From a virus (lineage: Duplodnaviria; Heunggongvirae; Uroviricota; Caudoviricetes), in the IMG/VR virus record IMGVR_UViG_2713897056_000005: a stretch of 38,380 nt of DNA; one strand, written 5' to 3'. This document shows positions 2,621-36,932 of the stretch, piece after piece; the stretch's first letter is position 1, and the number at the start of each line of letters is the position of its first letter. The position numbers were made by a program, and so were the translations under genes. Under the pieces are notes generated by a model that had not been told where the DNA came from, searched no databases, and saw nothing but the letters and a program-made list of their open reading frames with translations.

Positions 2621-2732
2621 AACTGAAGTTGCCCTGAAAATGAAATTTTTTTGCACAACCGCAGAACTTTTCCGCAGGGCATCAGTCTTAATTAGTGCCA
2701 CTGCTTTTCTTTGATGTCCCCATTTTGTGGAG

Positions 2733-2775
2733 CCCATCAACCCCGCCATTTCGGTTCAAGGTTGATGGGTTTTTG
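2733..2775. terminator. Structured hairpin followed by T-run downstream of ybjL
   Basis: cccatcaacc (2733..2742) pairs with ggttgatggg (2760..2769), followed by ttttt; the 17 nt loop is unusually large. Confidence 0.4.
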
Positions 2776-2865
2776 TTGCCTGTTAGATTACTCTCGATAA
2801 AATAATCACTTACTAGCCATATCAGCCTGCAATGGCGACAAAGTGGCGACAGAGAGAGAAAGAGC

Positions 2866-10776: not shown

Positions 10777-11349
10777 TCAGGGGGATTCATTGCTCTTATT
10801 TGCCGGAAATTTTCTATAAATTGTGGAAACACCCACATCAAAAATCAGTGCAATACGCTGTCTTGATTCTCCGGCCTCGAGTAAGCGCCCAATCTGTGCC
10901 CACTGTTCGGTGGTCAACTTAGGACGGCGTCCACCTACTCTGCCTTTATCACGAGCTGCAGCCAGCCCCGCCCTGGTACGTTCAACTATCAGTTCGCGTT
11001 CCATTTCTGCCAGGGCCCCCATGACATGAAAAAAGAAACGGCCCATTGGGGTGCTGGTATCAATACTGTCAGTCAGGCTTCGGAAATTCACGCCACGCTG
11101 GCGCAACTCTTCTATCAGCGTAACAAGATGCCGCATACTGCGCCCCAACCTGTCCAGCTTCCAGACGACCAGCGTGTCTCCTGCCGATAGTGTCCTGAGC
11201 AGTTTTTTCAGCCCCGGTCTGTCGGACTTAGTGCCACTGATTTTATCCTCAAAAATTCGCTCACATCCCGCGCAGTTCAGTGCATTACGTTGCAAATCGG
11301 TGTTCTGGTCATTTGTTGACACGCGTACATAGCCAATAAGCATGATCAT
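10777..11349 (-). CDS. Serine-recombinase DNA invertase (Gin/Cin/Pin/Hin family)
   Basis: MLIGYVRVSTNDQ N-terminal catalytic-serine motif, resolvase/invertase core, C-terminal helix-turn-helix (GVSTIYRKF); true start may be the third codon (11343). Confidence 0.85.
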   Translation of the reverse strand: MIMLIGYVRVSTNDQNTDLQRNALNCAGCERIFEDKISGTKSDRPGLKKLLRTLSAGDTLVVWKLDRLGRSMRHLVTLIEELRQRGVNFRSLTDSIDTSTPMGRFFFHVMGALAEMERELIVERTRAGLAAARDKGRVGGRRPKLTTEQWAQIGRLLEAGESRQRIALIFDVGVSTIYRKFPANKSNESP

Positions 11350-11408
11350 CCCCCTGAATAAAAACCGGAGATGATGCCAGTTAGCCGTAATCTCTGCATT
11401 TTCATAAA

Positions 11409-11424
11409 CGTTGGTTTGGGAGAA
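11409..11424. repeat. Inversion crossover site (invertase-proximal inverted repeat)
   Basis: cgttggtttgggagaa; reverse complement matches 13226..13241 at 15 of 16 positions; resembles gix/hix half-site pattern. Confidence 0.7.
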
Positions 11425-11760
11425 GCGGCAAAACGAAATGTGGGAACAGGGGAAAATCAGATACCAGATATGTCTGCATTCCCATCTGGCAAAAACTGGT
11501 TTCAGTTACCAAGTGGTCATATTGTCCAAATGTTTTCGATGAATGTTTATGGGGCGGACACTAACGGAACTACTGGTAATTTCCCTATTGCATTTCCTTC
11601 AGGTGCACTTGCTGTTAGTGCCTTATGGTCTGATGGCACATTAACGGCTGCTCCGACCTTTAAACTTATGGGGTACACGACAACAAGGACATCAGTAACC
11701 TTAAAAGTATCAACCGGAAATGGTTTGTATGGAACTATGATTATCGCAATAGGAAGATAA
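11425..11760 (+). CDS. Silent alternative tail-fibre C-terminal cassette (promoterless, fuses to the constant part of H after inversion)
   Basis: Frame begins inside the repeat with GLGE, then AAKRNVGTGENQ...; in-frame with H codons LGLGE at the other repeat, so inversion creates an in-frame fusion. Confidence 0.65.
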   Translation, partial: AAKRNVGTGENQIPDMSAFPSGKNWFQLPSGHIVQMFSMNVYGADTNGTTGNFPIAFPSGALAVSALWSDGTLTAAPTFKLMGYTTTRTSVTLKVSTGNGLYGTMIIAIGR

Positions 11761-11761
11761 T

Positions 11762-12205
11762 ATGAATCAATATATTTATTCCCCCTCGGAAAATGCATTT
11801 TATGCTGTTAATTTAAAAAATACTTATGAAGTAAATGGAACATGGCCCGCTGATGCATTAGATATTCCTGATAACATTTCTGTAAAATATATGGCGGAAC
11901 CGCCACAAGGGAAAATCCGAGTTGCAGGGGTAAATGGTTTTCCCACATGGGCTGAAATACCTCAACCATCACATGAAGAACTTATTCAACAGGCAGAATC
12001 AGAAAGACAATTATTGCTTAATCAGGCCAACGAACACATGAACAGTAAACAATGGCCTGGTAAAGCGGCTATTGGTCGTCTGAAAGGTGAGGAACTGGCG
12101 CAATATAATTTGTGGCTGGATTATCTGGACGCACTGGAGCTGGTCGATACTTCCGGTGCGCCAGATATTGAATGGCCTACGCCTCCGGCAGTTCAGGCCA
12201 GATGA
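11762..12205 (+). CDS. Alternative tail fibre assembly protein (silent orientation)
   Basis: 147 aa ORF directly after the alternative cassette; C-terminus (LWLDYLDALELVDTSGAPDIEWPTPP) parallels the active Tfa C-terminus (LDYIDAVTATDTSTAPDVIWPELP). Confidence 0.65.
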   Translation: MNQYIYSPSENAFYAVNLKNTYEVNGTWPADALDIPDNISVKYMAEPPQGKIRVAGVNGFPTWAEIPQPSHEELIQQAESERQLLLNQANEHMNSKQWPGKAAIGRLKGEELAQYNLWLDYLDALELVDTSGAPDIEWPTPPAVQAR

Positions 12206-12779
12206 CATCCGGCGCGGTGCTGGTATCTGTTGCCGTCACCGCGTCAATGTAATCCAGCATGGCGTTAAGTCGGGTTGTTTCTGCCTGCGTCAGTTTCCGT
12301 CCGGCCTGCAATTTCAACTGAATCAGACTAATGGAAGCCATTGCAGTATCAATCAGTGACTGACGTTGTGCTTCTGCCGCGTCTACTGCGGCGCTATGCT
12401 GTGCCTCGGTATCCGTCACCCATTTCTCACCATCCCATTTATCGTATGGCGTTAACGGGGCGATAGTGGTTGTTTTTTCGGGGTAATCACCCGGAGTTGT
12501 GATTTCTTTGGCGTCTCCCGTTTCGGTGTTATAGACAATTTCACCGCGATGGTCTGGCACATATTCCCATGAGTTTAAATCCATCGAACGGCAGATAGCA
12601 TAACCTGCCTTATGTGTGCCAGGGGCATCTAAACAGGAATATGCAGGGATACCGACACCAATGGCAAGATATTCATTTGAAGTGGAAATATATTCCCGTG
12701 TTTCGCCATCATAGTTATAGACGGTAATATTTCCCGCCTTTGTAGCAATAAACTCGCTATTTAATACAGCGTTATCCAT
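12177..12779 (-). CDS. G: Tail fibre assembly protein (gpG/Tfa family), active orientation
   Basis: 200 aa immediately downstream of H; start overlaps the H stop. Confidence 0.8.
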   Translation of the reverse strand: MDNAVLNSEFIATKAGNITVYNYDGETREYISTSNEYLAIGVGIPAYSCLDAPGTHKAGYAICRSMDLNSWEYVPDHRGEIVYNTETGDAKEITTPGDYPEKTTTIAPLTPYDKWDGEKWVTDTEAQHSAAVDAAEAQRQSLIDTAMASISLIQLKLQAGRKLTQAETTRLNAMLDYIDAVTATDTSTAPDVIWPELPEA

Positions 12780-14287
12780 TATGCAGCCCTCACGATATAG
12801 TTAAATGCAATATTCCGTGGGCGAGTATCGGCAGGAACGACATACATTTCACCAATTGCCCGCTCATTAGAGTTGTTCAGCAATAGGCTTGAGCCATTAC
12901 TGTCATGACCCGTAATTAAGATATCATTGGACAAAATAAGTGAGCCCGTACCTGCAGGAATACCATAAATTCCCATATCAAATTTAATATAACCAACACG
13001 CGCGCTCTGTGCAGACATAACGCTGCGACCAGTATCTACTGAACGACCGTCATCCCAGCCACGAATAAACTCACCGCGTAAATCAGGCAATTTATTTGTC
13101 GGGTAAGCCTTTGCCAGTTCCGGGTATTCTTCAGCAGAAAAAGCCGCACCGTTACATTTCAGCCAGCCAGTAGGCGGTGTTGCAGAAGGCCACGGAACAG
13201 GCACACCAACGGGTAATGCCGAACCTTCTCCCAAACCAAGGTATGTGAGAAGACCAGCTACATCCTTTCCACTCAAATTAGTCAGCGTATTGTCCAGCGG
13301 TTGTTTACCTGCCAGCGCATTAAGCATTGTCGTGGCAAAGTTCGGATCATTCCCCAGTGCCGCCGCCAGTTCGTTCAGTGTATCCAGTGCCGCAGGTGCA
13401 GAACCCACCATTCCTGCAATCGCCGATTTCACAAAAGCCGTAGTGGCAATCTGTGTATTATTGACCGACTGCGCCGCCGTAGGGGCTGTTGGCGTTCCGG
13501 TGAGTGCCGGACTCGACAGCGGCGCTTTCAGTGCCAGCGCATTGTTAATGGTGGTACTGAATTTCGGATCATTGTTAATGGCTACGGCTATTTCTTTCAG
13601 CGTGTCCAGCGTGGCTGGCGCACCATTAATAAGAGCCGTCAGTGCCGCCTGAACAAATGCGGTGGTCGCAATCTGCGTGGTGTTATTCCCCTCCGCTGGC
13701 GTTGGCGCTTTGGGTGTTCCGGTCAATGTCGGGCTTTCTTTGGGTGCATACTGTGAATGCGGGTCCGGTGCGGCAAGATGTTTTGCCATCTTATCATCCA
13801 CGAACACCTTCAGCTCCAGTACCTTGTCATCCACATACTTGCGGGTTGCCAGCACGACGGCAGGGTCGATTTTCAGGGTGATATTGTCCGTGCTGCTGGT
13901 AATCAGCACCATGCGCACGGTCTGGGTGCGCCCGCTGCCTTCAGCCAGTTGCGGCTTATAGCTTTCCGGGCAGTTGCCTACGGCAATCAATGCCCCGGAC
14001 TCATCAAACAGACCCACTTCACGTATCCACCAACCACCCTCATTTTCAGGGATCACCTGTTCAGCAATAATCTGGCTGCTGTTCTGCGGGTCGATATAGA
14101 GCATATTCAGCGCAGCCCGGCGTTTCTCATTTACCAGTGCCGTCTGCTTTGCGTCCGGCGCCGACAATGCTCCGCCGCCATCGCCCACCGCCATATGGGT
14201 AATTTTTAGCGGCACACCTAGCGCGGCGGCGCTGGCAAGTTTCGCCGCGCCAATATCCGTCAGCAGGGTATAAAATTTTGTGCTCAT
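12779..14287 (-). CDS. H: Tail fibre protein H (constant N-terminal about 354 aa plus current variable C-terminus)
   Basis: 502 aa; N-terminus MSTKFYTLLTDIGAAKLA resembles P2 gpH; contains internal crossover repeat. Confidence 0.85.
   Translation of the reverse strand: MSTKFYTLLTDIGAAKLASAAALGVPLKITHMAVGDGGGALSAPDAKQTALVNEKRRAALNMLYIDPQNSSQIIAEQVIPENEGGWWIREVGLFDESGALIAVGNCPESYKPQLAEGSGRTQTVRMVLITSSTDNITLKIDPAVVLATRKYVDDKVLELKVFVDDKMAKHLAAPDPHSQYAPKESPTLTGTPKAPTPAEGNNTTQIATTAFVQAALTALINGAPATLDTLKEIAVAINNDPKFSTTINNALALKAPLSSPALTGTPTAPTAAQSVNNTQIATTAFVKSAIAGMVGSAPAALDTLNELAAALGNDPNFATTMLNALAGKQPLDNTLTNLSGKDVAGLLTYLGLGEGSALPVGVPVPWPSATPPTGWLKCNGAAFSAEEYPELAKAYPTNKLPDLRGEFIRGWDDGRSVDTGRSVMSAQSARVGYIKFDMGIYGIPAGTGSLILSNDILITGHDSNGSSLLLNNSNERAIGEMYVVPADTRPRNIAFNYIVRAA
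13226..13241. repeat. Inversion crossover site inside gene H (encodes LGLGE)
   Basis: ttctcccaaaccaagg; inverted copy of 11409..11424. Confidence 0.7.
13304..13729. repeat. Diverged tandem duplication of about 225 bp inside H
   Basis: Protein shows two copies of a roughly 70 aa unit (NNTQIATTAFV...LDTL.E.A.A...DP.F.TT..NALA.K); coordinates approximate. Confidence 0.4.
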
Positions 14288-21753: not shown

Positions 21754-22587
21754 TCAGCAATTGGTCAGAGTGTCAGCGGGGGCGTTACCGCCTGTTGCAC
21801 GCTGGCGGTAGTCCTGGCGGCTGTCTTCATGGCTCAGCTTATTCACCAGTTCGTTAAAGGCGGTTTGCTGCTCCTGCAGAGCAGTCTCCAGCTCAGACAG
21901 GCGTTCTTCCTGCTCAGACAGGGATTTTTCGGTGCGTGCGCTCAGGTTCTGCTGCTCAGTGGCGACCAGCTCCACGGCTTTATGCACATCAGAGAACCGG
22001 GCATCGTCTGACTGCTCTTTTTTGGTGAACAGCGCCGTGACGCGGGCAAACAGGGACGGTTTGTCATCCTGGATTTCTTCCAGTTCGATCACCGTTTCCT
22101 CTGCAGCGGTAAAGAGATTGGCGGGATTCTGCTTGCGGTTTGCCAGCGGGTTATGGGCTGCACTGGCGCTGAATGTCAGCATTTCCGTACCCAGACTGGC
22201 AGGGTCATCAGTGGCAGCCAGGCCGACCAGGTAGGCTTTGCCCGTATCAGCGAACTTCGGGCTGACTTCCATAGAGGTGAATAATTTCTGGCCTTTTTTC
22301 ACCAGTTCCACCAGGGACTCCGTTGGCTCAACATCGGCATACAGCGCCATCTTGCCTGCCAGCGGACCTTCCGTGATTTCTTCAGCAAACAGCGCCGTCA
22401 CCTTGCCGTAGCGGTTAAAGGTGCTGTCCGGCAGATAAGACTTGATGTGCTCAAGGTTAATCAGCGCGGTATACACCGCCGGGTTGTAGCTGGCTGCCAT
22501 CTGTTCCAGCCATTCACGCTGGATTTCGCGTCCGTCGGTGGTGGCACCTTCCACCCCGATGCGAAAACGCTTTGCTTTCACTGTCAT
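21754..22587 (-). CDS. O: Capsid scaffold protein O
   Basis: 277 aa; coiled-coil rich C-terminus; divergent from P. Confidence 0.85.
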   Translation of the reverse strand: MTVKAKRFRIGVEGATTDGREIQREWLEQMAASYNPAVYTALINLEHIKSYLPDSTFNRYGKVTALFAEEITEGPLAGKMALYADVEPTESLVELVKKGQKLFTSMEVSPKFADTGKAYLVGLAATDDPASLGTEMLTFSASAAHNPLANRKQNPANLFTAAEETVIELEEIQDDKPSLFARVTALFTKKEQSDDARFSDVHKAVELVATEQQNLSARTEKSLSEQEERLSELETALQEQQTAFNELVNKLSHEDSRQDYRQRATGGNAPADTLTNC

Positions 22588-22665
22588 GAGCCGTGCTCCG
22601 TTAGAAAAAACTTACTGGAGCCTTATGGTTGCGGTGATGGGGGCAGTGAAACAATGCGCGGTATT

Positions 22666-22683
22666 TGTACCGACAACCACACA
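22666..22683. promoter_or_regulatory. Candidate Ogr-dependent late promoter site (TGT-N12-ACA) in the divergent O/P control region
   Basis: tgtaccgacaaccacaca; 55 nt from the P start and 87 nt from the O start; assignment to PO or PP is ambiguous. Confidence 0.45.
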
Positions 22684-22729
22684 AACCGCAGGCGGGGAAA
22701 GCCTTCATTCAAGGCTGTAGGTTTGTGCC

Positions 22730-24499
22730 ATGAACACCACACTGACACCCGCAGATCTCGATCCCCGTCGGCAGGCCATGCTGCTGTACTTTCAGGGATA
22801 CCGCGTAGCCCGCATTGCTGAAATGCTGGGCGAGAAAGTTGCAACCGTTCACAGCTGGAAAAAAAACGCGACAAGTGGGGTGACTATGGGCCGCTGGATC
22901 AGATGCAGCTCACCACCGCCGCACGCTACTGCCAGCTCATTATGAAGGAGCACAAAGAAGGGAAAGATTTCAAAGAGATTGACCTGCTGGCGCGCCAGTC
23001 GGAGCGCCATGCGCGGATCGGCAAGTTTAACAATGGCGGCAACGAAGCCGACTTAAACCCTAACGTCGCCAACCGCAACAAAGGCCCGCGCCGTCAGCCG
23101 GAAAAGAACGTTTTCACCGATGAACAGATTGAGAAGCTGGAAGAAATCTTCCATTCCTCCATGTTCAACTACCAGCGCCACTGGTGGGAAGCCGGAAAAA
23201 CCAACCGCATCCGCAACCTGCTGAAGTCACGCCAGATCGGCGCGACCTTTTACTTTGCCCGTGAAGCCCTGATTGACGCCCTGCTTACCGGACGTAACCA
23301 GATTTTCCTTTCTGCCAGTAAGGCACAGGCTCACGTCTTTAAGCAGTACATCATAGACTTCGCCAAAGAAGTCGAGGTGGAGCTGAAAGGCGATCCGATG
23401 GTGCTTCCTAACGGAGCCACGCTTTACTTCCTCGGCACCAATGCCCGCACGGCCCAGAGTTATCACGGCAACCTGTATCTGGATGAATATTTCTGGATAC
23501 CGAAATTCCAGGAGCTGCGCAAAGTGGCTTCCGGTATGGCTATTCACAAAAAATGGCGACAAACCTATTTTTCCACGCCATCCAGCCTGACACACAGTGC
23601 TTATCCGTTCTGGTCCGGTGCGCTATTCAACCGTGGGCGCAACAAAGCCGATAAGGTGGACATCGACCTGTCCCACAGCAATCTGGCCCCCGGCCTGCTG
23701 TGCGCAGACGGGCAATACCGCCAGATAGTCACCGTGGAAGATGCGGTGCGCGGCGGCTGTAACCTGTTCGACCTTGACCAGTTGCGCATGGAGTACAGCC
23801 CGGACGAATACCAGAACCTGCTGATGTGCGAGTTTGTGGACGATCTCGCGTCCGTGTTTCCGCTCAGCGAGCTGCAGGCGTGCATGGTGGACAGCTGGGA
23901 AGTCTGGACCGACTTTCATGCACTGGCGCTGCGCCCGTTTGGCTGGCGCGAGGTGTGGATCGGTTATGACCCGGCAAAAGGTACGCAGAACGGCGATAGT
24001 GCCGGATGCGTGGTGGTGGCTCCGCCAGCCGTGCCGGGTGGTAAGTTCCGCATTCTTGAGCGTCACCAGTGGCGCGGGATGGACTTCCGCGCCCAGGCTG
24101 ACGCCATCAAAAAACTGACCGAACAGTATAACGTGACCTATATCGGCATCGACTCGACCGGCGTCGGTCACGGGGTTTACGAGAACGTGAAAGCGTTTTT
24201 TCCTGCCGTCAGGGAGTTTGTCTACAACCCCAACGTTAAAAAACGCCCTGGTACTCAAGGCCTACGACATTATCAGCCACCGCCGTCTGGAGTTTGACGC
24301 CGGGCACACCGACATTGCGCAGTCATTTATGGCAATCCGTCGCGCTACCACTGCCAGTGGCAACCGCCCGACCTATGAAGCCAGCCGCAGCGAAGAAGCC
24401 AGCCATGCCGATCTGGCCTGGGCAACAATGCACGCACTGTTTAACGAACCGCTGCAGGGCGAATACGCCAATACCAGCAATATTGTGGAGATTTTTTGA
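22730..24499 (+). pseudogene. P: Terminase ATPase (large) subunit P, reading frame broken twice at homopolymer A runs
   Basis: Three consecutive ORFs in different frames (22730..22945, 22903..24297, 24218..24499) together give a continuous terminase-like protein; breaks at A8 (22859..22866) and A6 (24238..24243). Confidence 0.75.
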
Positions 24500-25602: not shown

Positions 25603-26268
25603 TTAAAGATCCGGATCTACAGGCTCATGATATAGATTTACAGGGTAATGAATAACTTCATAATTCAGTTGAGTAACTGTGTGAACATGCTGGCTATAAA
25701 AAACCAATGGATTTTTTTGACAAGGAGTAATCGTTATAGATTTACAGGCATGAATTCTTGGTGCGAATTTATCTAAATGCGCCTTCCAGTTGCTCATCAT
25801 TTCATTACATTTTCTATTACGAGTATAGATAATCAATCCACCACTTGCGCTGTCTACGGTCCCTGTACTATATCGTTCAGTGAGTTGAGCATACCCTTTA
25901 AATAAATAACTATATGAAGATGTATGTTTTTTGGCTTCGCCATGCCAAATATAATCCTTTAGTTTTATTGTAATATCACAATGTCCGCGCTGATTATTTT
26001 CATGAAATGCTTCAATGCCCATATCTTTATTTTTGATATTGGCCAATAAAATTAAAGTAAGCTGATCTTCTGTTAAATCGAAGTTTAACTTATTTGAATT
26101 CTCTTCTATTTCCTTTACAGCAGAATCAAGTTCAATCCTGACAAATTGTTTGAAATTATCGTACGATTGAAGTGCAAATCTAACACGAGTAATAGAAGCA
26201 TTAATACGCTGAAGAAAAATATCATTATCAATATCAGCCAAACTCATTGCTGCAGACATTTTTAACAT
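25603..26268 (-). CDS. Hypothetical protein, gene 3 of AT-rich cargo operon; possible PD-(D/E)xK-like nuclease motif
   Basis: 221 aa; start ATG overlaps the stop of the upstream gene (TGATG); segment GHCDITIKLKDYIWHGEAKK fits a D...ExK pattern (weak). Confidence 0.5.
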   Translation of the reverse strand: MLKMSAAMSLADIDNDIFLQRINASITRVRFALQSYDNFKQFVRIELDSAVKEIEENSNKLNFDLTEDQLTLILLANIKNKDMGIEAFHENNQRGHCDITIKLKDYIWHGEAKKHTSSYSYLFKGYAQLTERYSTGTVDSASGGLIIYTRNRKCNEMMSNWKAHLDKFAPRIHACKSITITPCQKNPLVFYSQHVHTVTQLNYEVIHYPVNLYHEPVDPDL

Positions 26269-26702
26269 CAGATAATATCCTTTGATTTAGATTCATCTAA
26301 TGTAAAAAAAGGAAATACGAATGACTTATAGTCATACATAAGCTCCCCTGTAAATGGGTTTACTAAAGATTGACTGATTTCCGCCTCAATAACTTCCTCT
26401 ATTTCAAGTTCTACAGGGTCATGAAAATCATCAATGAACCAATAATTGAGTTTTAAAAAATCAACCTTTGGGCTACAAAGAATTTGTATGGCCGGATAGA
26501 TAACCTGCTCATACGTTTCTGGCTGTAAAACCTTATTATAACCACCAGCTATATTAAATAAATCCTTATAACTTAAAGCTATATTTGATGATTTTTTAGC
26601 CCTTGCCTCGATTTCATCGTACAAATAGCAAGCTAACGCCCCAATTTCAGGGCGTTCTGCACACATTTCTTTGATGATCTTGGGCATATCACCATCCTTC
26701 AT
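26268..26702 (-). CDS. Hypothetical acidic protein, gene 2 of cargo operon
   Basis: About 144 aa from the ATG at 26702 with GGAG Shine-Dalgarno; Asp/Glu-rich. Confidence 0.5.
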   Translation of the reverse strand: MKDGDMPKIIKEMCAERPEIGALACYLYDEIEARAKKSSNIALSYKDLFNIAGGYNKVLQPETYEQVIYPAIQILCSPKVDFLKLNYWFIDDFHDPVELEIEEVIEAEISQSLVNPFTGELMYDYKSFVFPFFTLDESKSKDII

Positions 26703-26714
26703 TGCTGACTCCAA

Positions 26715-27821
26715 TTATAATATCAGCTTTGTGAGGGTTTCGAAATCATCTTTGGATATACATTTACTTAATATAGCATAGTTAACAGGAGAGCAACTAC
26801 TCCCTCCTAGATGCCTGCGGAGTGTTCCCGGAATGATAAGCTCTACGTTATCCGCTAATTGCAGTTTTGGATTATTTCTATCAACTCTAATTCCAATACG
26901 ATACAAACCAATACTGCCTACTGCTTTGATGCCTTCCTTATTAAACAAATCATCACGTAAGTCTTTAGTGGCCACATTTTTCTTTTCTTTATGCGTAGTC
27001 CCCTCATTCGTCAAAAATGACAAATCAAAGACTTTATAGCTTAATTTTGAATAAGGCAATGAATTTTGTTTGAAAATTGGCTCAATTAACGGATAAAAAT
27101 CTTTTTCCGATGATTTAAATTCATAACCGACATGATTATACAATTCACGAATAATGTTACTCTTTGCAAAAGTAACATTATCACCAATAATATTACCATT
27201 AGTATCTACCAAAACATGAATTTTATTAGTAACAGAGTCTAATATACAGACATCAAAACATTGTCGCTTTTCTTTTCGCTTTGCAATAATTTCATCAAAC
27301 TGCTTGTATTGCGCAAGTGCTGACGGGGGAATTTTTTCTCTTACAACTAATTCTCTGACAGATGAAAAAACAAGTATTGACTGGGTGTTTTGAATAGAAT
27401 AATTAACAAGTTCAGGTTGATTTTTTACAGCATTTTGCAATTGGACATCATCAAGGATCGAATCAACCAATAATGATGGTTGATTCATCAAATTCCATTG
27501 AAAACTAAATCTGTCATTTAGTGTTTTAATTACACTATTATCTACAGTCAAACTAAATATTGCTTTTTCACCATAAACGACCTGACCAAAAATTAGGTCA
27601 TTTACGTTTGCCATAATGCCATCAAACTTTTGCCTATCTTTACTTTTAAGATCAATGAGGCTTTCTAGTATTTTTTCGTTTGTTGCTTCACGCCCCCTAC
27701 CTGTTGGCAGCCCTAAAGACGCAATAATTGGCCTTGCAACGTTCCATGTGAAACGTTCAGTTAAGGTCAAGATCGACTTTAACTCAGACTCAGAAAGCAC
27801 TACTGGGACACTACCTGTCAT
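26715..27821 (-). CDS. Hypothetical protein, gene 1 of cargo operon
   Basis: About 368 aa from the ATG at 27821 with AGGTG Shine-Dalgarno (a GTG at 27830 is an alternative start); no recognisable ATPase or other motif. Confidence 0.5.
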   Translation of the reverse strand: MTGSVPVVLSESELKSILTLTERFTWNVARPIIASLGLPTGRGREATNEKILESLIDLKSKDRQKFDGIMANVNDLIFGQVVYGEKAIFSLTVDNSVIKTLNDRFSFQWNLMNQPSLLVDSILDDVQLQNAVKNQPELVNYSIQNTQSILVFSSVRELVVREKIPPSALAQYKQFDEIIAKRKEKRQCFDVCILDSVTNKIHVLVDTNGNIIGDNVTFAKSNIIRELYNHVGYEFKSSEKDFYPLIEPIFKQNSLPYSKLSYKVFDLSFLTNEGTTHKEKKNVATKDLRDDLFNKEGIKAVGSIGLYRIGIRVDRNNPKLQLADNVELIIPGTLRRHLGGSSCSPVNYAILSKCISKDDFETLTKLIL

Positions 27822-27980
27822 AACTTGCACCTAGTCATCCAAAAAGCAATAAGAATTTGCTCTTGTCTTAATTTATCCTTCGATACCTAACAAATTACCT
27901 CAATGTTGAAAAAATTTGCAAGCCATTTGCTTCTAAAAAGCGACCTTACTCAGAGTGTTACAAAACTAAGCGAGCGCGCG

Positions 27981-27999
27981 CTCGTATCCCCGCCACGCC
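27981..27999. other. cos-like cohesive-end site
   Basis: Reverse complement GGCGTGGCGGGGATACGAG; the first 13 nt match the P2/186 cohesive-end sequence as I recall it; sits in a 720 bp non-coding stretch. Confidence 0.5.
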
Positions 28000-28020
28000 T
28001 GCCCGCTTTATGCAGTGATT

Positions 28021-28123
28021 TTCATGCACCTGCATGACATAAGCGAAAGCCCGCCAGTTCTGGGGGGCCTCAGCAAAAACGATCCTCAAACGATCATGCA
28101 ATTTCATGCAGCATAGTCATGCA
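28021..28123. repeat. Cluster of short CATGCA repeats adjacent to cos (possible terminase binding sites)
   Basis: CATGCA at 28023, 28095, 28105 and 28118 plus an inverted TGCATG at 28031. Confidence 0.35.
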
Positions 28124-28552: not shown

Positions 28553-29525
28553 CTAACTTCCCTTTATTTTTAGTTCGTTAAAAATATCTTCGATTACCAA
28601 TCCATTTTTAATTAAATGCTGCACAATATTTTCATATTCTTTGAAATTGTCAATATGCAAGCCATGATCTTTTTCTTTAGCAATTCTCGTGATCACATGT
28701 ACGCTATCTGTATAATCAATCTTATTTTTAAGAGCATTGAGCAAACTTATACTTGGATTTAAAGTTGAGATTAGTTTACCAAACTCGGTTTGTAACTCTT
28801 TGGATTGATGAGTATTAATATAATCTTCAATAAAAGCATCAAAATCTCCTTGCAACTCAACTTTAAGGTTTGCTATATCCTTCATAATATTTTCTAACTC
28901 AGAAGAGTATGGCCGACCATGTTTAAAATCGAATAAAAAAAGATTTGCTTTCTCAATACATTCGCAAATATAAAAAACTGTATAAAGGGAATATTTTTGC
29001 TTAACTTTTAATTTTCCATAGGCGTAGTGAACCAAAAGATGCTTAGCATTAATAACATTTTTATTTTTTGAAAGTTGATTGTTAGTTGCAGGCGGATAAA
29101 TTACCACATCAACATTATCTAAATTTTGAAAAGTTTTTAAAATAAGAGCCTCAACCTTATTCCAATCGAGGCCCCCATTACCACAGCCTAAAGGTGGTAT
29201 TGATATTGATGTAATTTTTTTTTTCATCTATAATTTTTGCTAAAGATTCAAGGCCTTGCGAGATAAAATCATATGTTGATTTTTTTCTCCAACTATCTTT
29301 AGTGGGAAAGTTTACAATTATTTTTCCCTTTTCCTCTACAATTAAAACCTGTCCAATTTTCATTGTACCAGTGGCGCATGCTCTCTTATAAACTTCGAAA
29401 TTATAGGGAAAAGTTTCTTTAAAAGCCAAAGCAATACCCTTTCCCATGACTCCTTGGCAGTTTACAGCATTCACAAGAGCTTGCGATGTAGAGTTTAGAA
29501 GATTTCCGCTTGCATACTTAATCAT
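28553..29525 (-). pseudogene. darG: DarG-like macrodomain antitoxin, split into two ORFs at an A10 tract
   Basis: 29178..29525 encodes the macrodomain N-terminus (ALVNAVNCQGVMGKGIALAF) and 28553..29227 continues it (SIPPLGCGNGGL) plus a C-terminal domain; frames switch inside the A10 run at 29215..29224. Confidence 0.65.
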
Positions 29526-29529
29526 AGAA

Positions 29530-30111
29530 TTAGAACATATAAGTGTTGATCGTTATCAATATACTTAATCCTTGTTGTTTTATCAACCCTTCAACATATT
29601 TTTTTTCGTTATCATTTTTGACAAAGATGCAATGGAAATTTTTCGGCTCGACCGTTACACTTGATAAACACTCAGCCATACATACAGATTTGCATTCTGC
29701 ATTTTTATAATCCCTTATATTCATTAGCTCCCAGTCAATTTGGGCCATTCCTTGTTCATAATCTAAGAGGTCTATAACAGAACTGGTGGATAATGGATGT
29801 TTAGGGATAACTTTCCAACCATTTTCTTTGGCAAATGCCCGACAAACCGAAATAATACAAAATGATTTTTCCTTATGATCTTTCAGGACTCTTCCATCAA
29901 ATGGATTCTTAGTAAAGAAATGAAAAGGAACCATTGTTTGCAAATTTAATGCTTCGCGACCTGTTATTATTTCACCGTCGGCCACATCAACAAACTCACC
30001 TTTTACTGATGCACGAGATCTTAATCCTGTATCTAAAATACTAGGTAGATTATCCATACATGTTAAATGATAGAGAAGATACTGATCTTCAATTCTTTTC
30101 CTTTCGCTCAT
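29530..30111 (-). CDS. darT: DarT-like DNA ADP-ribosyltransferase toxin (DUF4433 family)
   Basis: N-terminal LLYHLTCMDNLPSILDTGLRSR matches the DarT signature as I recall it; 193 aa; 4 nt upstream of the macrodomain gene; GGATGA Shine-Dalgarno. Confidence 0.65.
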   Translation of the reverse strand: MSERKRIEDQYLLYHLTCMDNLPSILDTGLRSRASVKGEFVDVADGEIITGREALNLQTMVPFHFFTKNPFDGRVLKDHKEKSFCIISVCRAFAKENGWKVIPKHPLSTSSVIDLLDYEQGMAQIDWELMNIRDYKNAECKSVCMAECLSSVTVEPKNFHCIFVKNDNEKKYVEGLIKQQGLSILITINTYMF

Positions 30112-30578
30112 TTCAACTCATCCTTTCAAATTCGTAAGTCTATTTATAGAACCAAACCTCACTGGCAGTCAAGGTTTTTAAGATTATTCACATTGCCTTC
30201 TGCCTGTCGATCTAATTATTTTCGATTTTTTGGGTATGATTTGGCATTATTGATATACAAGGTAAAACAATTTTTCAGTAGTTTACTGACGCTGAGTGAT
30301 TACGATAGCTAGCTTGGGAAGGAAATGGCCATAGTGCATGTGCTGAACAAAATGAAAAAGGCAGGGACATTCTGGTCTTCCCCATGAGTATGGATTTTCA
30401 TTGCATCGATGGGTATGAGCAACGTCCCCTTGATTAAGGATAGCGTTGCATCGACCCGTTGAACTCACAACACAAATCGTACAATCACTTATCAAAATGG
30501 CCGCCCACCTTACGCCTCGTTTCACTCGCTACCCAAACTAGCCCCCATCAGAATGAATCCTCCTGGGGGCAATGTTTC

Positions 30579-30812
30579 TTAATGCAGCCAGCTGTCGTCC
30601 TCCCACACCTTCTGCATAATTTTCATCACTTGTTTTCTTTCTTCATCCAGTTGCAGTCCGGTTAGTTCCACACCGTTAGAGCTACCTTTGCGAATGCGAA
30701 TTACCGTTTTGGGATACAGGGGGCGCAGATTGCGGTAAAGCTCGGATTCAAGGGCGTCCAGGGTAGACTGGCTAATCTTCTGCTCTTTATCGATCATTAT
30801 TTCAATGCGCAT
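30579..30812 (-). CDS. DinI-family protein (possible C-terminal domain of a Tum-like antirepressor)
   Basis: MRIEIMIDKEQKIS...VWEDDSWL resembles DinI; the longer ORF to 30884 and upstream frames may be part of the same gene. Confidence 0.65.
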   Translation of the reverse strand: MRIEIMIDKEQKISQSTLDALESELYRNLRPLYPKTVIRIRKGSSNGVELTGLQLDEERKQVMKIMQKVWEDDSWLH

Positions 30813-31054
30813 AAAAGTCACCTCAGCTGATGACATCCATTGAGCGGTTGTATTCGTGGCTTCTGATTTTTGCCATGAGTTCATCTGTCAGTTCAGAAAC
30901 CCACTGCAGAGCCAGCCCTTTCTCTTCATCACTACACTCACTAGCCGCTACAAGCTTAAGAAAAAAAATCAATGCGCTGGAGCTTCAAAGACTCCAAAAA
31001 ATAGTCCTGCATCTTTCCTCCTATGACACCAAAGCAATACTGTATACATAACCA

Positions 31055-31070
31055 CTGTTTATATTTACAG
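31055..31070. promoter_or_regulatory. LexA (SOS) box
   Basis: CTGTTTATATTTACAG, a perfect CTGT-N8-ACAG; lies upstream of a GGAGGA-ATG (31012) and the DinI-like gene on the minus strand. Confidence 0.6.
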
Positions 31071-31167
31071 TATATAATAATCTTACTGATGTAAAACGTT
31101 TTTTTTTTACGTTCATCAGCCTGATATGCCTAGTATTATTAAGAGCACGAATTGTTAACCCGCGTAA

Positions 31168-33582
31168 TTAATACAGATCCCGCCACTTATCATCTTCCTG
31201 CAAACGCTGGTTCCGATAGAAGATACGCAGGCCTGCTCCTGACGGAATACTGCCACCGCGAAGGAGTAAATCGACCTCTTTCTCGCTTCCATCAAATCCT
31301 CTGGACTTCAGTTCATAGACGAGCTGCTGTCGCTGATGATCTGTAATTCGCTGTTTGTAGTCTCTACGCCGTTTCGGTTTCACCAGGCGTAACCTTGCAG
31401 CCAGTTCCCGGCGCTCTTTTTTGTTCATACTGTGCAGGTAATCGTGCAATTCCTTGTCATCCATGCAGGTGATATCCGTTCTGGTATCCCCATCAGCTGA
31501 TTTGTCTTTCCCTTGTTGGTACAAATTTTCAGCAAGGGGACAGTTATTGCCACGAGTCCAAGGGGCGCAAGCGCCCTGGTCGGCTGCCGCCTCCTGAACG
31601 TCAACGGCTTTACGAACCATTTTCCACTTCACTGCATGAGTGCAGATCTTGCCCTCTGCAATGGGTGACCAGATGCCATAAATACGAATGCCGTGATCGC
31701 CATAGGCGGTCGGCTCTTCGTTGATTTCATAAGCGGTTCTGATGAGGTGATATTTACGGGGAACCAGTACGCCGCCCTGCTTCATGATGTAGGTGGCAAA
31801 ACAACCAGCATCAGCAGCAGCCAGGATGGCATCAAGGCGCGGGTTATCCAGTACCGGCGCACCTGCTTTTTTGTCCCCCTTTTGCCTTACCGCCTGACCA
31901 GCCAGCAATCGCAGTTCACGGTAAGCCTGACGCCCCGGAATGCCAAAGAAGCGGAATTGCTGAACACGATGCAAAGACGCCCAGGCATTCACGTATTCAG
32001 CGTTATCACGCAGAGATTTACCCGTTTCCTTGCTGATCTCGCCAGCCAGACCACGCCCGTCAATGTTCTTACTGATGTATTTCGCTATGTAGCTTGTCGG
32101 CGTTCCTTTGCGCGGGTTAATCAGCTCAGACTTAAAGCGCGGCCCCGTGTTATTGCCCAGCTCCTCGCGGTCTTCACGGATAGCAAACTTACGCAACAAT
32201 GCTGTAATGGCGCGGCGGTCTTTTTTGCGCATGAAACACAACAGGTGCCAGTGAACTGTGCCGTCGTGATGCGGCTCAGCCACCCGCACGCCATACCAGC
32301 GCAACCCGGCTTTGTGCATCGCCTTACGAAATGCAGCAAACATACCGACCAGATAATCGCTGCTTTGTCTTACCGTCGCATTTGTCCAGGTCGGGTTGGG
32401 CCTGCCGTTATTTAGCGTGGAATGGAAACGTGACGGACAGGTGATGGTGTAGAAAACGGCGCAGTCACCGCGCATTTCCGCGATAAGCTCCAGACCTTTA
32501 ACACAGGCCATCATCTCATTGCGGCGATGCGCAGGGTTGCTGCTGCTGGCGTTTACCACATCCTCCATGTCTAGCGTGTCGCCGTCTTCGTTCACCAGTT
32601 CATGAGAACGGAAAAACTCCAGCGACTTACGGCGCTGCTCACGTTTATGCAACACGGCTTCATAGCTGACATAGGGAGATGCTTTTTTGCTGACAAGGCA
32701 GACAGCACGCAACTGCTCTTCCCGCCATTCGCAACGCATCTTCCATAATTTCCGATACCACCAGTCGGCGCACAACATACGCGCCAGCGAACCCGGAATG
32801 AGTTCATAGGGCACGGGTTTACGGCGGTTTCTTTTCCGACGGAGTTGCTCAAACGCAGGCGGGATGACATCCAGACGCAGGGTTTCCGCTGCCACCCTTT
32901 CCCATGTATTGCGGATTTCTTCTGGCTTAACGTCATCGGTGGCATACAAATCGCCACAAGCGGCATCAAGGCACATACTCATATGCGCAGCTACCAGGGT
33001 GGACAGGCGTTTCACCTGATCCTGACTCATTTCAGGCAGGATCAGCAGGCCGTCCAGCCCTTCATGGCTTGCCATAAAGCGAAAAGATGCAGATAGCTGA
33101 CTGTCGCGTACATGCTCCAGTCGTTCCAGACATGGCTTAATCGTCTCACGTAAATAGCGGGAATAAGCCTTTGGCCTGCCCAGGCTGCTGAAGTATTCAA
33201 TACGTTGCATCAGCGGCTTGCTGATATGGGAAGGCTGGGCGTTGACGTCCGCCAGAATGACCATATCCGGATTAAAACGCTGCTGCTCATGCGCCAGCTT
33301 TGCCCGACTAATGAGCTTATCCTGTTCCATTTCGCGCTGGACAGGATCACGGGATTCATTAAAGAAATAACGCTCCCAGACCTGATCACTCAGCGCCTCA
33401 CGGCGCAGCTGTTCCTGCTCGTTATCGGCAGCGTACAGAGTGATCAGGTTTGAAAGCGTAGAAACCGGCGCAACTTCCACCGGGTCCAGATAAGGGTTAA
33501 TGGCCTTTTTCGAGCTGTTCCATGAGAACGATGCGGCAGCTTCGTTAAAGCCGCAGCAGTTGTTCATATCGGCATGACTCAT
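31168..33582 (-). CDS. A: Replication initiation endonuclease A (rolling-circle initiator)
   Basis: 804 aa; last gene of early operon; P2/186 gene A size class. Confidence 0.8.
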
Positions 33583-36356: not shown

Positions 36357-36932
36357 GTGACCATGAATTTGGAGAAAGGCGGACGAGGCGCCATAGAGCG
36401 CATGGTAGAAGCTTATGGATTCAAGACTCGACAGGCGTTGTGCGATCATTTAGGAATCTCTAAAAGTACACTCGCCACACGCTACATGCGTGACTCATTC
36501 CCAGCAGAATGGGTAATCCAGTGCGCCCTTGAAACAGGCACCTCGCTTAATTGGCTCACAACCGGGCATGGTTCAAAGCAAACTTCAGGTAATACAAATA
36601 CTATGGAAGTTGCTAAATATGTATTATCTGATGGGGCCTTGTGTGAAGACGGTTTTTATATTTTCGATAGAGAATTTCTACCGTCGGCATTCAAGAATCT
36701 TTTTGTAATCACAGATAATAATTCTGAATTTATTTGTGATAAGGAATTTGATGATATACGTGATGGTAAATGGGTAATAAGTATTGATGGCGAAATAACG
36801 ATCCGTGACATTACTCGTTTACCCGGTGGAAGAATCTTCGTCGAGGGTGGAAACAGAGCCTTTGAATGTAAGATAGAAGACATTGAAATAATTGGTAAAA
36901 TTATAAGTTTAACAGTCAAGTATGTTAAATAG
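36357..36932 (+). CDS. cI: Immunity repressor (186 CI-like)
   Basis: 191 aa; N-terminal HTH region (EAYGFKTRQALCDHLGISKSTLATRY) and C-terminal LPGGRIFVEGG resemble 186 CI from memory. Confidence 0.7.
   Translation: MTMNLEKGGRGAIERMVEAYGFKTRQALCDHLGISKSTLATRYMRDSFPAEWVIQCALETGTSLNWLTTGHGSKQTSGNTNTMEVAKYVLSDGALCEDGFYIFDREFLPSAFKNLFVITDNNSEFICDKEFDDIRDGKWVISIDGEITIRDITRLPGGRIFVEGGNRAFECKIEDIEIIGKIISLTVKYVK

What the first reader, a model, noticed from the sequence alone, without database searches (positions are those of the whole stretch)
30579..31070. SOS-regulated DinI/Tum-like antirepressor module next to cos
A perfect LexA box (CTGTTTATATTTACAG) sits just upstream of a strong Shine-Dalgarno-ATG at 31012 and a DinI-family domain at 30579..30812. 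In phage 186, LexA-controlled Tum (C-terminal DinI-like domain) is the antirepressor that couples prophage induction to the SOS response, so this looks like the equivalent module. The reading frame from ATG 31012 closes after 18 codons at a T8 run (complement of the A run 30961..30968) and the DinI domain is in a different frame; the gene may be a short leader plus separate DinI-like gene, or a Tum-like gene with further homopolymer indels.
Basis: partly seen in the sequence, partly recalled or inferred. Interest (0 to 1): 0.45.

Follow-up and report, generated by a model that had tools for sequence, protein, structure and literature searches.

The report
Known SOS prophage-induction module, frameshifted
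This is the already known DNA-damage switch of Fels-2/186-type prophages (a LexA-repressed promoter, a small antirepressor gene and a separate DinI gene); the broken reading frame is one extra T found only in this sequence, and is probably a sequencing error.

Summary
The interpretation needs correcting. The region is the Fels-2/PSP3-type split tum operon of a P2/186-like prophage. After replication gene A comes a promoter overlapped by two overlapping SOS boxes, not one. The operator closely resembles the colicin N operator. Next comes a 62-codon gene, 97% identical to Fels-2 STM2728. Profile comparisons show it is homologous to the N-terminal half of 186 Tum. A separate 77-codon DinI gene, like PSP3 tumB, starts 10 nt further on. 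The 18-codon "leader" is the start of the 62-codon gene, cut short by one extra T (T8 instead of T7). T7 was found in 125 of 125 related viral contigs, and no T8 allele was found in 1,104 E. coli genome records. The window is almost identical to the intact prophage of E. coli S40. It differs by about five substitutions plus seven indels, all in A/T homopolymers. These indels also break the terminase and the DarG antitoxin, which points to sequencing error. The likely antirepressor is the small upstream protein, not DinI. The cos site lies 2.6 kb away, beyond a DarTG cargo. The module is already known and of low interest.

The parts
31090..31095 (-). Putative -35 hexamer TTTACA of the SOS promoter (counterpart of 186 p95)
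   Evidence: Read. It lies 17 nt upstream of TACTGT, the same layout as the annotated 186 p95. The stretch GTTTTACATCAGTAAGATTATTATATACTGT is identical in 107 of 119 related loci. The simple consensus scan did not report it.
31067..31072 (-). Putative -10 hexamer TACTGT, lying inside the distal SOS box
   Evidence: the annotated -10 of 186 p95 is also TACTGT, the first six bases of its LexA site.
31053..31072 (-). Distal SOS box TACTGTAAATATAAACAGTG (core CTGT-N8-ACAG at 31055..31070), matching the LexA consensus at 17 of 20 positions
   Evidence: It is nearly invariant across 119 related loci.
31038..31057 (-). Proximal SOS box CAGTGGTTATGTATACAGTA (15 of 20 to consensus). Its core shares one base with the distal core, giving a colicin-type double operator.
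   Evidence: the double operator aligns with the one 43 nt upstream of the colicin N gene; the arms are conserved and the centre varies across 119 loci.
31017..31022 (-). Shine-Dalgarno sequence AGGAGG, 4 nt before the ATG at 31012
   Evidence: invariant in the alignment.
30823..31012 (-). tumA-like antirepressor gene (Fels-2 STM2728 type; 62 codons in relatives). Here it is frameshifted, and as written it ends after 18 codons at TAA 30956..30958.
30961..30968 (-). T8 homopolymer carrying the extra T (T7 in all relatives examined)
30579..30812 (-). Separate DinI-family gene (tumB type, 77 aa) with its own GAGG ribosome-binding site. It starts 10 nt after the tumA-like stop codon.
31099..31108 (-). 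A10 run just upstream of the -35 hexamer (A7 in S40 and other relatives, A6 in Fels-2); another homopolymer length difference
30541..30570 (-). GC-rich hairpin (GCCCCCA...TGGGGGC) followed by a weak T tract after dinI. It may be a partial terminator. It belongs to the variable cargo, not to the conserved module.
   Evidence: 7-bp stem, but the fold is not distinctive (z -1.1); sequences diverge right after the dinI stop.
36363..36932 (+). 186-type CI repressor, the presumed target of the antirepressor
   Evidence: 33% identity to 186 CI, E 7e-38. Phage_CI_repr plus Phage_CI_C, the same domain pair as 186 CI..
31168..33582 (-). Replication endonuclease gene A, immediately upstream of the module
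   Evidence: Phage_GPA, E 1.7e-127.
27975..28033 (-). cos site (core GGCGTGGCGGGGATACGAG at 27981..27999)
   Evidence: it matches the annotated cos of phage Cartapus.

Best explanation
The region is the SOS operon of a Fels-2-like (P2/186 family) prophage, in its split form.

**Repressed state.** In an undamaged cell, LexA probably binds as two dimers to two overlapping SOS boxes that cover the -10 region of a promoter just after gene A. This keeps the operon off.

**Induced state.** DNA damage activates RecA and LexA cleaves itself. The operon is then transcribed and two proteins are made. The first is a 62-aa helical-hairpin protein homologous to the N-terminal half of 186 Tum. It is expected to bind the 186-type CI repressor and stop it binding its operators, which induces the prophage. 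The second is a separate DinI-family protein expected to modulate RecA filaments.

**What is shown and what is inferred.**
- Shown from sequence: the layout, the conservation and the homologies.
- Inferred from work on 186, PSP3, Fels-2 and the colicins: LexA binding, antirepressor activity and the role of DinI.

**The frameshift.** In this window the antirepressor gene carries one extra T (T8 instead of T7), which truncates it to 18 residues. I judge this most likely (about 70%) to be a homopolymer sequencing or assembly error rather than biology.
For: **Layout and conservation**
- Relatives have gene A, a 62-aa gene and a 77-aa DinI gene in the same order.
- The 62-aa product is 96.8% identical to Fels-2 STM2728.
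- In related viral contigs the 62-aa frame is intact in 113 of 113 loci, DinI follows in 105 of 113, and the SOS box is present in 111 of 113.

**Homology to Tum**
- Family profile against 186 Tum: hhalign probability 93.6%, E 2.1e-7, residues 5-44 of both.
- Profile against profile: 97.8%, E 1.3e-12.
- Independent PHROG profiles cross-match. The 186 Tum N-terminus hits phrog_698, the window's family, at 6.4e-6. The window protein hits phrog_1993, the PSP3 TumA family, at 0.002. Both hit phrog_8554.
- DinI: Pfam E 6.6e-23, 41% identity to the Tum C-terminus, and E. coli DinI 1GHH at E 2.7e-6.
- CI has the same two domains as 186 CI.

**Literature**
- Fels-2 and PSP3 have tum split in two, and in PSP3 the upstream gene carries the antirepressor activity (PMC3121763).
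- The PSP3 record annotates tumA and tumB.
- The 186 record annotates p95, its LexA site and tum.

**Double operator**
- It aligns with the colicin N promoter.
- Its conservation pattern across 119 loci fits a LexA site.
- Colicin operators bind two LexA dimers (PMC2994835).

**Frameshift as an artefact**
- The window differs from the intact S40 prophage by about five substitutions and seven indels, all in A/T runs, including +3 and +2 changes.
- These indels also split the terminase and DarG.
- T7 is present in 125 of 125 viral loci, and no T8 allele was found in 1,104 E. coli records.
Against: - No experiment was possible. LexA binding, SOS-dependent transcription and binding of the small protein to CI are all inferred.
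- Plain BLASTP finds no similarity between the 62-aa protein and 186 Tum, and the profile match to PSP3 TumA alone is weak (probability 14.6%).
- Part of the score comes from mis-called N-terminal extensions that translate the SOS operator.
- The simple promoter scan did not report the proposed promoter.
- The paper with the direct Fels-2 genetics (Bunny et al. 2002) could not be read.
- The sequencing-error reading cannot be proven without reads. A real set of homopolymer mutations, for example in a mismatch-repair-deficient lineage, would look the same.
Confidence: 0.8

Rival explanations
1. The extra T is real. The antirepressor gene is a pseudogene, so the prophage has lost SOS inducibility. 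Together with the terminase frameshifts, it would be a decaying, locked-in prophage.
For: The sequence as given has the frameshift. The 18-residue product lacks most of the two-helix fold and all the conserved residues of helix 2. Loss of an antirepressor promoter is documented to inactivate Gifsy-1 in Salmonella ST313 (PMC5322425).
Against: All seven indels relative to S40 are in A/T homopolymers, and two are +2 or +3. There are only about five substitutions in 38 kb. One indel splits the DarG antitoxin next to an intact DarT toxin gene, which should be harmful to the cell. None of about 1,230 other copies has T8.
Confidence: 0.17
2. One reading: a single fused Tum-like gene, as in 186, broken by several homopolymer indels.
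For: 186 Tum is a fusion of the two parts.
Against: In every relative the two genes are separate. A TGA stop, a 10-nt gap and a separate ribosome-binding site lie between them. Removing the single T restores the 62-aa gene, which ends at its own stop codon. Many short stand-alone proteins of the Tum N-terminal type exist.
Confidence: 0.01
3. One reading: the 18-codon frame is a genuine short leader peptide that regulates an independent dinI paralogue, and the locus has no antirepressor.
For: There is a strong ribosome-binding site and ATG. DinI has its own start signals.
Against: The 18 codons are the first 17 codons of a 62-aa protein family plus one codon altered by the frameshift. That family is conserved down to about 35% identity with an invariant Trp37. 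It is homologous to the Tum N-terminus. No relative ends at codon 18.
Confidence: 0.01
4. The T run is a slippage-prone switch. Either it varies between T7 and T8 as a phase-variable control of inducibility, or RNA polymerase or ribosome slippage on T8 restores some full-length protein.
For: Homopolymer runs of this length can slip during replication and, at low level, during transcription (general knowledge, not tested here).
Against: No length variation was seen at this run: 125 of 125 viral loci have T7 and no T8 allele occurs in 1,104 E. coli records. A phase-variable tract should show both states in such a sample.
Confidence: 0.01

Closest known systems
Salmonella prophage Fels-2, genes STM2728 and STM2726.1 (its tum homologue region)
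   Same: Same gene order after gene A. The 62-aa protein is 96.8% identical, the DinI gene follows after 10 nt, and the promoter and double SOS operator are almost the same. From my own recollection of Bunny et al. 2002 (not readable here): the Fels-2 tum homologue makes lexA null mutations lethal in Salmonella LT2.
   Different: The host is E. coli. The window copy has T8 instead of T7, the cargo downstream differs, and the CI allele may differ.
Phage PSP3 tumA / tumB
   Same: A split arrangement of a small upstream gene plus a DinI gene. The record annotates tumA as 'UV induction of prophage', and the antirepressor activity is assigned to the upstream gene (PMC3121763). PSP3 TumB resembles the window DinI closely when the two translations are compared by eye; no alignment was run.
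   Different: PSP3 TumA belongs to a different subfamily (phrog_1993 rather than phrog_698). Direct similarity is weak. PSP3 has a single 186-type SOS box that aligns with the window's proximal box.
Coliphage 186 tum and promoter p95
   Same: A LexA-repressed promoter after gene A whose -10 hexamer TACTGT lies inside the SOS box. The N-terminal part is homologous to the 62-aa protein and the C-terminal part is DinI-like. CI is of the same type.
   Different: In 186 the two parts are fused into one 146-aa protein with internal starts. There is one SOS box, orf97 follows, and the module is close to cos.
Gifsy-1/2/3 dinI-antirepressor (gfoA, gftA) operons
   Same: A LexA-controlled prophage operon that combines a dinI homologue with a small antirepressor acting on a non-cleavable repressor (PMC3121763).
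   Different: The gene order is reversed (dinI first), the antirepressors and repressors belong to other families, and the phages are lambdoid.
Double overlapping SOS boxes of colicin operons (for example colicin N, cna)
   Same: Two SOS boxes whose cores share one base. The window is 86% identical over 43 nt to the operator just upstream of cna. Colicin operators bind two LexA dimers and give very tight repression (PMC2994835).
   Different: It controls a prophage antirepressor rather than a toxin. Binding of two LexA dimers here is inferred, not shown.
E. coli DinI (PDB 1GHH)
   Same: The 77-aa product matches over its whole length (E 2.7e-6) and matches Pfam DinI.
   Different: It is phage-encoded and its role in induction is unclear. 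Deleting dinI homologues in Gifsy prophages had no significant effect on induction (PMC3121763).

Membership tests
Tum / TumA-type LexA-controlled antirepressor operon of 186-like phages | The promoter lies after replication gene A and is overlapped by a LexA (SOS) box | tested here: met
   Boxes at 31038..31072 overlap the -10 hexamer TACTGT. The layout matches the annotated 186 p95, and the box is conserved in 111 of 113 loci. This is sequence-level evidence only.
Tum / TumA-type LexA-controlled antirepressor operon of 186-like phages | The protein is homologous to the N-terminal (non-DinI) part of 186 Tum | tested here: met
   hhalign 93.6%, E 2.1e-7; 97.8%, E 1.3e-12; PHROG cross-hits. BLASTP alone is negative.
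Tum / TumA-type LexA-controlled antirepressor operon of 186-like phages | An intact open reading frame for the antirepressor | tested here: not met
   In the window as written the frame stops after 18 codons because of T8. It is intact in S40 and in 113 of 113 related loci. The break is probably an artefact.
Tum / TumA-type LexA-controlled antirepressor operon of 186-like phages | A DinI-like domain or gene immediately downstream | tested here: met
   A 77-aa gene lies 10 nt after the stop. Pfam DinI E 6.6e-23, and 41% identity to 186 Tum residues 71-145.
Tum / TumA-type LexA-controlled antirepressor operon of 186-like phages | A cognate 186-type CI repressor in the same phage (no self-cleaving protease domain) | tested here: met
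   CI at 36363..36932 has Phage_CI_repr plus Phage_CI_C and is 33% identical to 186 CI. The Peptidase_S24 match is below threshold (16.3 bits against a cut-off of 23.3).
Tum / TumA-type LexA-controlled antirepressor operon of 186-like phages | The protein binds CI and blocks operator binding, and is required for UV induction | not testable with these tools
   Known for 186 Tum. For PSP3 it rests on a personal communication cited in PMC3121763.
DinI family (Pfam PF06183) | A full-length match to the DinI profile above the curated cut-off | tested here: met
   81.3 bits against a cut-off of 24.2, profile positions 1-63 of 63. PDB 1GHH at E 2.7e-6.
DinI family (Pfam PF06183) | Binds and modulates RecA filaments | not testable with these tools
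   Inferred from the family only.
Colicin-type double SOS operator | Two SOS boxes whose cores overlap by one base, each with recognisable CTG/CAG arms | tested here: met
   The distal box matches the consensus at 17 of 20 positions and the proximal box at 15 of 20. The operator aligns with the cna operator. The first arm of the proximal box is GTG rather than CTG, as in colicin N.
Colicin-type double SOS operator | Occupied by two LexA dimers | not testable with these tools
   Needs a footprint or gel-shift experiment.

The most novel reading that the evidence does not exclude
The small Tum-like protein may be a broad-range antirepressor. Nearly the same protein (91.7-100% identical; at least 96.8% in 62 of 64 loci) sits next to CI repressors that are only 38-100% identical to the window's CI. 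In those repressors the N-terminal DNA-binding domain stays 63-100% identical, while the C-terminal domain falls to about 29%. If one antirepressor acts on all of them, it would recognise the conserved DNA-binding domain. It could then cross-induce P2-like prophages of different immunity, under a colicin-style two-LexA operator that delays firing until damage is severe. A less likely reading is that the T8 allele is real and marks a prophage that has lost SOS inducibility.
Probability: 0.25. Interest if true: 0.4.

Novelty: already known. Interest (0 to 1): 0.15.

Why it matters
It matters little as a discovery. The module is the documented SOS induction switch of Fels-2/PSP3/186-type prophages, and it is present in about 1,100 to 1,600 of 5,426 complete E. 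coli genomes.

Three practical points come out of it:
- **Sequence quality.** This window carries homopolymer length errors that create false pseudogenes in tumA, the terminase and darG. Other "frameshift" findings from this sequence should be treated with caution.
- **Annotation gap.** The real antirepressor family is labelled "hypothetical", "unknown function" or, wrongly, "levan regulatory protein" in Pfam, PHROGs and GenBank records. Meanwhile the neighbouring DinI gene attracts the functional label.
- **Two small, testable leads.** One is the colicin-like double SOS operator. The other is the pairing of one antirepressor allele with many CI alleles.

Tried and rejected
- **BLASTP of the repaired 62-aa protein against 186 Tum:** no hit. 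Profiles were needed.
- **Pfam on the 62-aa protein:** no family.
- **hhalign against PSP3 TumA alone:** weak, probability 14.6%.
- **Structure and fold search:** the AlphaFold model is a confident two-helix hairpin (pLDDT 86). The Foldseek search of the PDB gave only generic helical hairpins, best E 0.96, so it says nothing about function.
- **Rfam:** no RNA family in or near the region; the only hit is RybB at 2700..2778.
- **Consensus scans:** the promoter scan missed the proposed promoter, and the only terminator-like hit was a hairpin at 30817..30834. That hairpin spans the tumA stop and the dinI ribosome-binding site. I considered whether it couples translation of the two genes, but its folding energy is not distinctive (z -1.2), so I dropped the idea.
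- **Hairpin after dinI (30541..30570):** also not distinctive.
- **The CTGT-N8-ACAG motif count alone:** not significant.
- **Bunny et al. 2002:** could not be retrieved. PMC3448106 does not mention SOS control.
- **Heterology index for the SOS boxes:** not computed, because I could not reproduce the published frequency table reliably. I compared the boxes with colicin N instead.
- **Fused-gene and leader-peptide models:** rejected on the alignments.

Full report
**1. The observation.**
- the stop codon of an 804-aa replication protein (gene A, Pfam Phage_GPA E 1.7e-127) at 31168;
- a run of ten A at 31099..31108;
- TTTACA at 31090..31095, then 17 nt, then TACTGT at 31067..31072;
- the motif CTGTAAATATAAACAG at 31055..31070;
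- AGGAGG at 31017..31022 and ATG at 31010..31012;
- a frame reading MQDYFLESLKLQRIDFFS that stops at TAA 30956..30958, just after a T8 run at 30961..30968;
- in another frame, a 77-codon gene at 30579..30812 that matches Pfam DinI over the whole profile (E 6.6e-23).

The stated coordinates are correct. The bare motif CTGT-N8-ACAG occurs once in the window, but 0.46 matches are expected by chance. Its meaning therefore rests on context and conservation, not on the match itself.

**2. What relatives show.**
The region matches many P2/186-family (Peduoviridae) phages of Escherichia, Klebsiella and Salmonella. In phages vB_EcoM-813R9, Cartapus and Klebsiella ST11-OXA245phi3.1 the annotation is gene A, a 189-nt gene, then a 234-nt DinI gene.

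The alignment shows that these phages have T7 where the window has T8. Removing one T gives an intact 62-aa protein. That protein is 96.8% identical to Fels-2 STM2728, which is followed by STM2726.1, a DinI family protein noted as similar to PSP3 TumB. PSP3 itself is annotated with tumA ("similar to 5' end 186 tum; UV induction of prophage") and tumB (DinI-like).

Lemire et al. (PMC3121763) state three things:
- 186 Tum is a fusion of an antirepressor part and a DinI part.
- In PSP3 the upstream gene carries the antirepressor activity.

**3. Is the small gene really Tum-like?**
- BLASTP finds nothing between the 62-aa protein and 186 Tum.
- An exhaustive HMMER search found a small family of 56 clusters at 50% identity, reaching down to about 35% identity.
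- An alignment of 27 members has an invariant Trp37 and a conserved pattern, ES..LQRI...rlVa.s.C...K.LA..W..EL.
- This profile matches 186 Tum residues 5-44 with hhalign probability 93.6% and E 2.1e-7.
- Against a profile of 186-type Tum N-termini, including many stand-alone proteins of 63-92 aa named "Tum protein", the match is 97.8%, E 1.3e-12. Some of that score comes from wrongly extended N-termini that translate the SOS operator, so I rely mainly.
- Independent PHROG profiles agree. The 186 Tum N-terminus hits phrog_698, the window's family, at 6.4e-6. The window protein hits phrog_1993, the PSP3 TumA family, at 0.002. Both hit phrog_8554. All three PHROGs are labelled "unknown function".
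- AlphaFold predicts a confident two-helix hairpin, helices 2-23 and 28-61, pLDDT 86. The PDB fold search gave nothing specific.
- The 18-residue product encoded by the window would contain only part of helix 1.

**4. The DinI gene and the repressor.**
The 77-aa protein is 41% identical to 186 Tum residues 71-145 and matches E. coli DinI, PDB 1GHH. It starts 10 nt after the TGA of the small gene and has its own GAGG ribosome-binding site. This arrangement holds in 105 of 113 related loci. It is therefore an independent gene, not a domain of the antirepressor.

The prophage encodes a 186-type CI at 36363..36932. It is 33% identical to 186 CI and has the same Phage_CI_repr plus Phage_CI_C domain pair, with no significant S24 protease domain. 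That fits induction by an antirepressor rather than by repressor self-cleavage.

**5. The operator.**
Aligning the promoter regions of the window, Fels-2, PSP3 and 186 shows that the single SOS box of 186 and PSP3 lines up with a second, weaker site in the window, not with the perfect box.

The window therefore has two boxes:
- distal, TACTGTAAATATAAACAGTG at 31053..31072, 17 of 20 to consensus;
- proximal, CAGTGGTTATGTATACAGTA at 31038..31057, 15 of 20 to consensus.

Their 16-nt cores share one base.

A search of plasmids with this 51-nt stretch found 203 records, 128 of them mobilizable plasmids. In the one small plasmid whose annotation placed the match next to a gene, it lies 43 nt upstream of the colicin N gene, and the two operators align closely. 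A second plasmid examined showed no adjacent colicin gene. [quoted passage not shown]

Across 119 related loci the distal box is almost invariant. In the proximal box the arms (GTGGTTAT and TACAGTA) are conserved while the central bases vary. That is the pattern expected of a real LexA site. The -35 and -10 layout copies the annotated p95 of 186, where the -10 hexamer is also TACTGT inside the LexA site. LexA binding itself was not tested.

**6. The frameshift.**
The best match in complete E. coli genomes is strain S40. Over an 851-nt query, its prophage differs only by four homopolymer bases. In S40 the annotation is fully intact.

Over the whole window I found about five substitutions, plus four at the edge of an inverted segment. 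I also found seven indels, every one in an A/T run:

| Position | Change (S40 to window) | Location or effect |
|---|---|---|
| 31106-31108 | A7 to A10 | just upstream of the -35 hexamer |
| 30968 | T7 to T8 | frameshifts the tumA-like gene |
| 29224 | A9 to A10 | splits DarG |
| 28537 | T7 to T8 | effect not examined |
| 24243 | T5 to T6 | splits the terminase |
| 22865-22866 | T6 to T8 | splits the terminase |
| 2769 | T6 to T5 | RybB terminator |

A pattern search that allowed any run length found T7 in all 125 related viral contigs. A 92-nt query containing T8 found 1,104 E. coli records, none at 99% identity or better, with the best hits showing a single gap.

Three features point to sequencing or assembly error:
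- the indels are exclusively in homopolymers and include multi-base changes;
- there are very few substitutions;
- an antitoxin gene is broken next to an intact toxin gene.

A real origin, for example in a mutator lineage, cannot be excluded without reads.

**7. Position relative to cos.**
The window's cos is at about 27975..28033. It matches the annotated cos of phage Cartapus, with core GGCGTGGCGGGGATACGAG. It lies 2.6 kb beyond the dinI stop. In between are DarT (29530..30111), the frameshifted DarG and an IS5 remnant.

Sequence conservation ends exactly at the dinI stop codon. In 78 related loci plus the window, the 1.5 kb that follows falls into 42 unrelated clusters. The SOS module is therefore the last conserved unit before a variable cargo site.

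**8. Mechanism and verdict.**
The best-supported account has four steps:
1. LexA, probably as two dimers, holds the promoter off.
2. DNA damage removes LexA.
3. The 62-aa Tum-like protein is made and inactivates CI by binding it, which induces the prophage.
4. DinI is co-expressed and may tune RecA activity.

Steps 1 to 4 are inferred from 186, PSP3, Fels-2 and colicin work. The layout, homology and conservation are shown here.

It assigned the antirepressor role to the wrong part, missed the second SOS box, and did not have the single-base explanation for the broken frame. The module is already known and very common, so interest is low.

One mildly interesting observation remains. Almost the same antirepressor allele sits next to CI alleles that are only 38-100% identical to the window's CI, and their N-terminal DNA-binding domain is better conserved than the C-terminal domain. 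This hints at a broad-range antirepressor that targets the DNA-binding domain. The sample was selected for a near-identical tumA segment, so this is a lead and not a result.

Noticed in passing
window 31106-31108, 30968, 29224, 28537, 24243, 22865-22866, 2769: Compared with the near-identical prophage of E. coli S40, all seven indels in 38 kb are length changes in A/T homopolymers: six expansions and one contraction. There are only about five substitutions. This looks like systematic homopolymer error in this assembly and creates false pseudogenes.
   Followed up: yes
window 29530..30111 (DarT) and 28553..29525 (DarG, split into 115-aa and 224-aa frames): A DarT-DarG toxin-antitoxin anti-phage system sits as cargo right after the SOS module (PADLOC DarT 2.2e-36; the S40 DarG scores 2.8e-80). 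In the window DarG is split by an A9-to-A10 change. If real, this would leave the toxin unopposed.
   Followed up: partly
window 22447..24499 (+): The large terminase subunit is a single 588-aa gene in S40. Here it is broken into three frames by two homopolymer insertions (T6 to T8 near 22865, T5 to T6 near 24243).
   Followed up: partly
window 11399..13239, next to 10777..11349: The tail-fibre segment is inverted relative to S40 and lies beside a serine recombinase gene (Resolvase plus HTH_7). It looks like a Gin/Cin-type invertible host-range switch caught in the opposite orientation.
   Followed up: partly
window 25603..27830 (-): Three genes (221, 148 and 371 aa) lie between the portal gene and cos. 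They have no significant Pfam or PADLOC match and may be an uncharacterised accessory or defence cassette in the second P2-type cargo site.
   Followed up: partly
window 30578 downstream; loci L008-L127: Conservation stops exactly at the dinI stop codon. The next 1.5 kb falls into 42 unrelated clusters among 79 sequences, so this is a hypervariable cargo hotspot directly downstream of an SOS promoter. This recalls 186 orf97, which is in the SOS operon and blocks 186 infection.
   Followed up: partly
loci L008-L127, with CI at window 36363..36932: Nearly the same antirepressor allele (at least 96.8% identical in 62 of 64 loci, lowest 91.7%) is paired with CI repressors only 38-100% identical to the window's CI. 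The CI N-terminal DNA-binding domain stays 63-100% identical while the C-terminal domain drops to about 29%. There is no correlation between the two (r 0.015). The sample is biased by the search pattern.
   Followed up: partly
window 2700..2778 (+): The host sRNA gene RybB (Rfam 99.6 bits) lies near the left end of the prophage. Its terminator T run is one base shorter than in S40.
   Followed up: no
proteins P0001, P0250 and others; window 31021..31116: Many database entries for this family start too far upstream (96 aa instead of 62). The extra residues are a translation of the SOS operator, which can inflate profile similarity between families. Some entries carry the unsupported name 'levan regulatory protein'.
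   Followed up: partly
window 30183..30210 (-): A promoter-like site (TCGACA, 16 nt, AATAAT; 10 of 12 matches) lies about 70 nt upstream of DarT. This suggests the cargo has its own promoter as well as possible read-through from the SOS operon.
   Followed up: no
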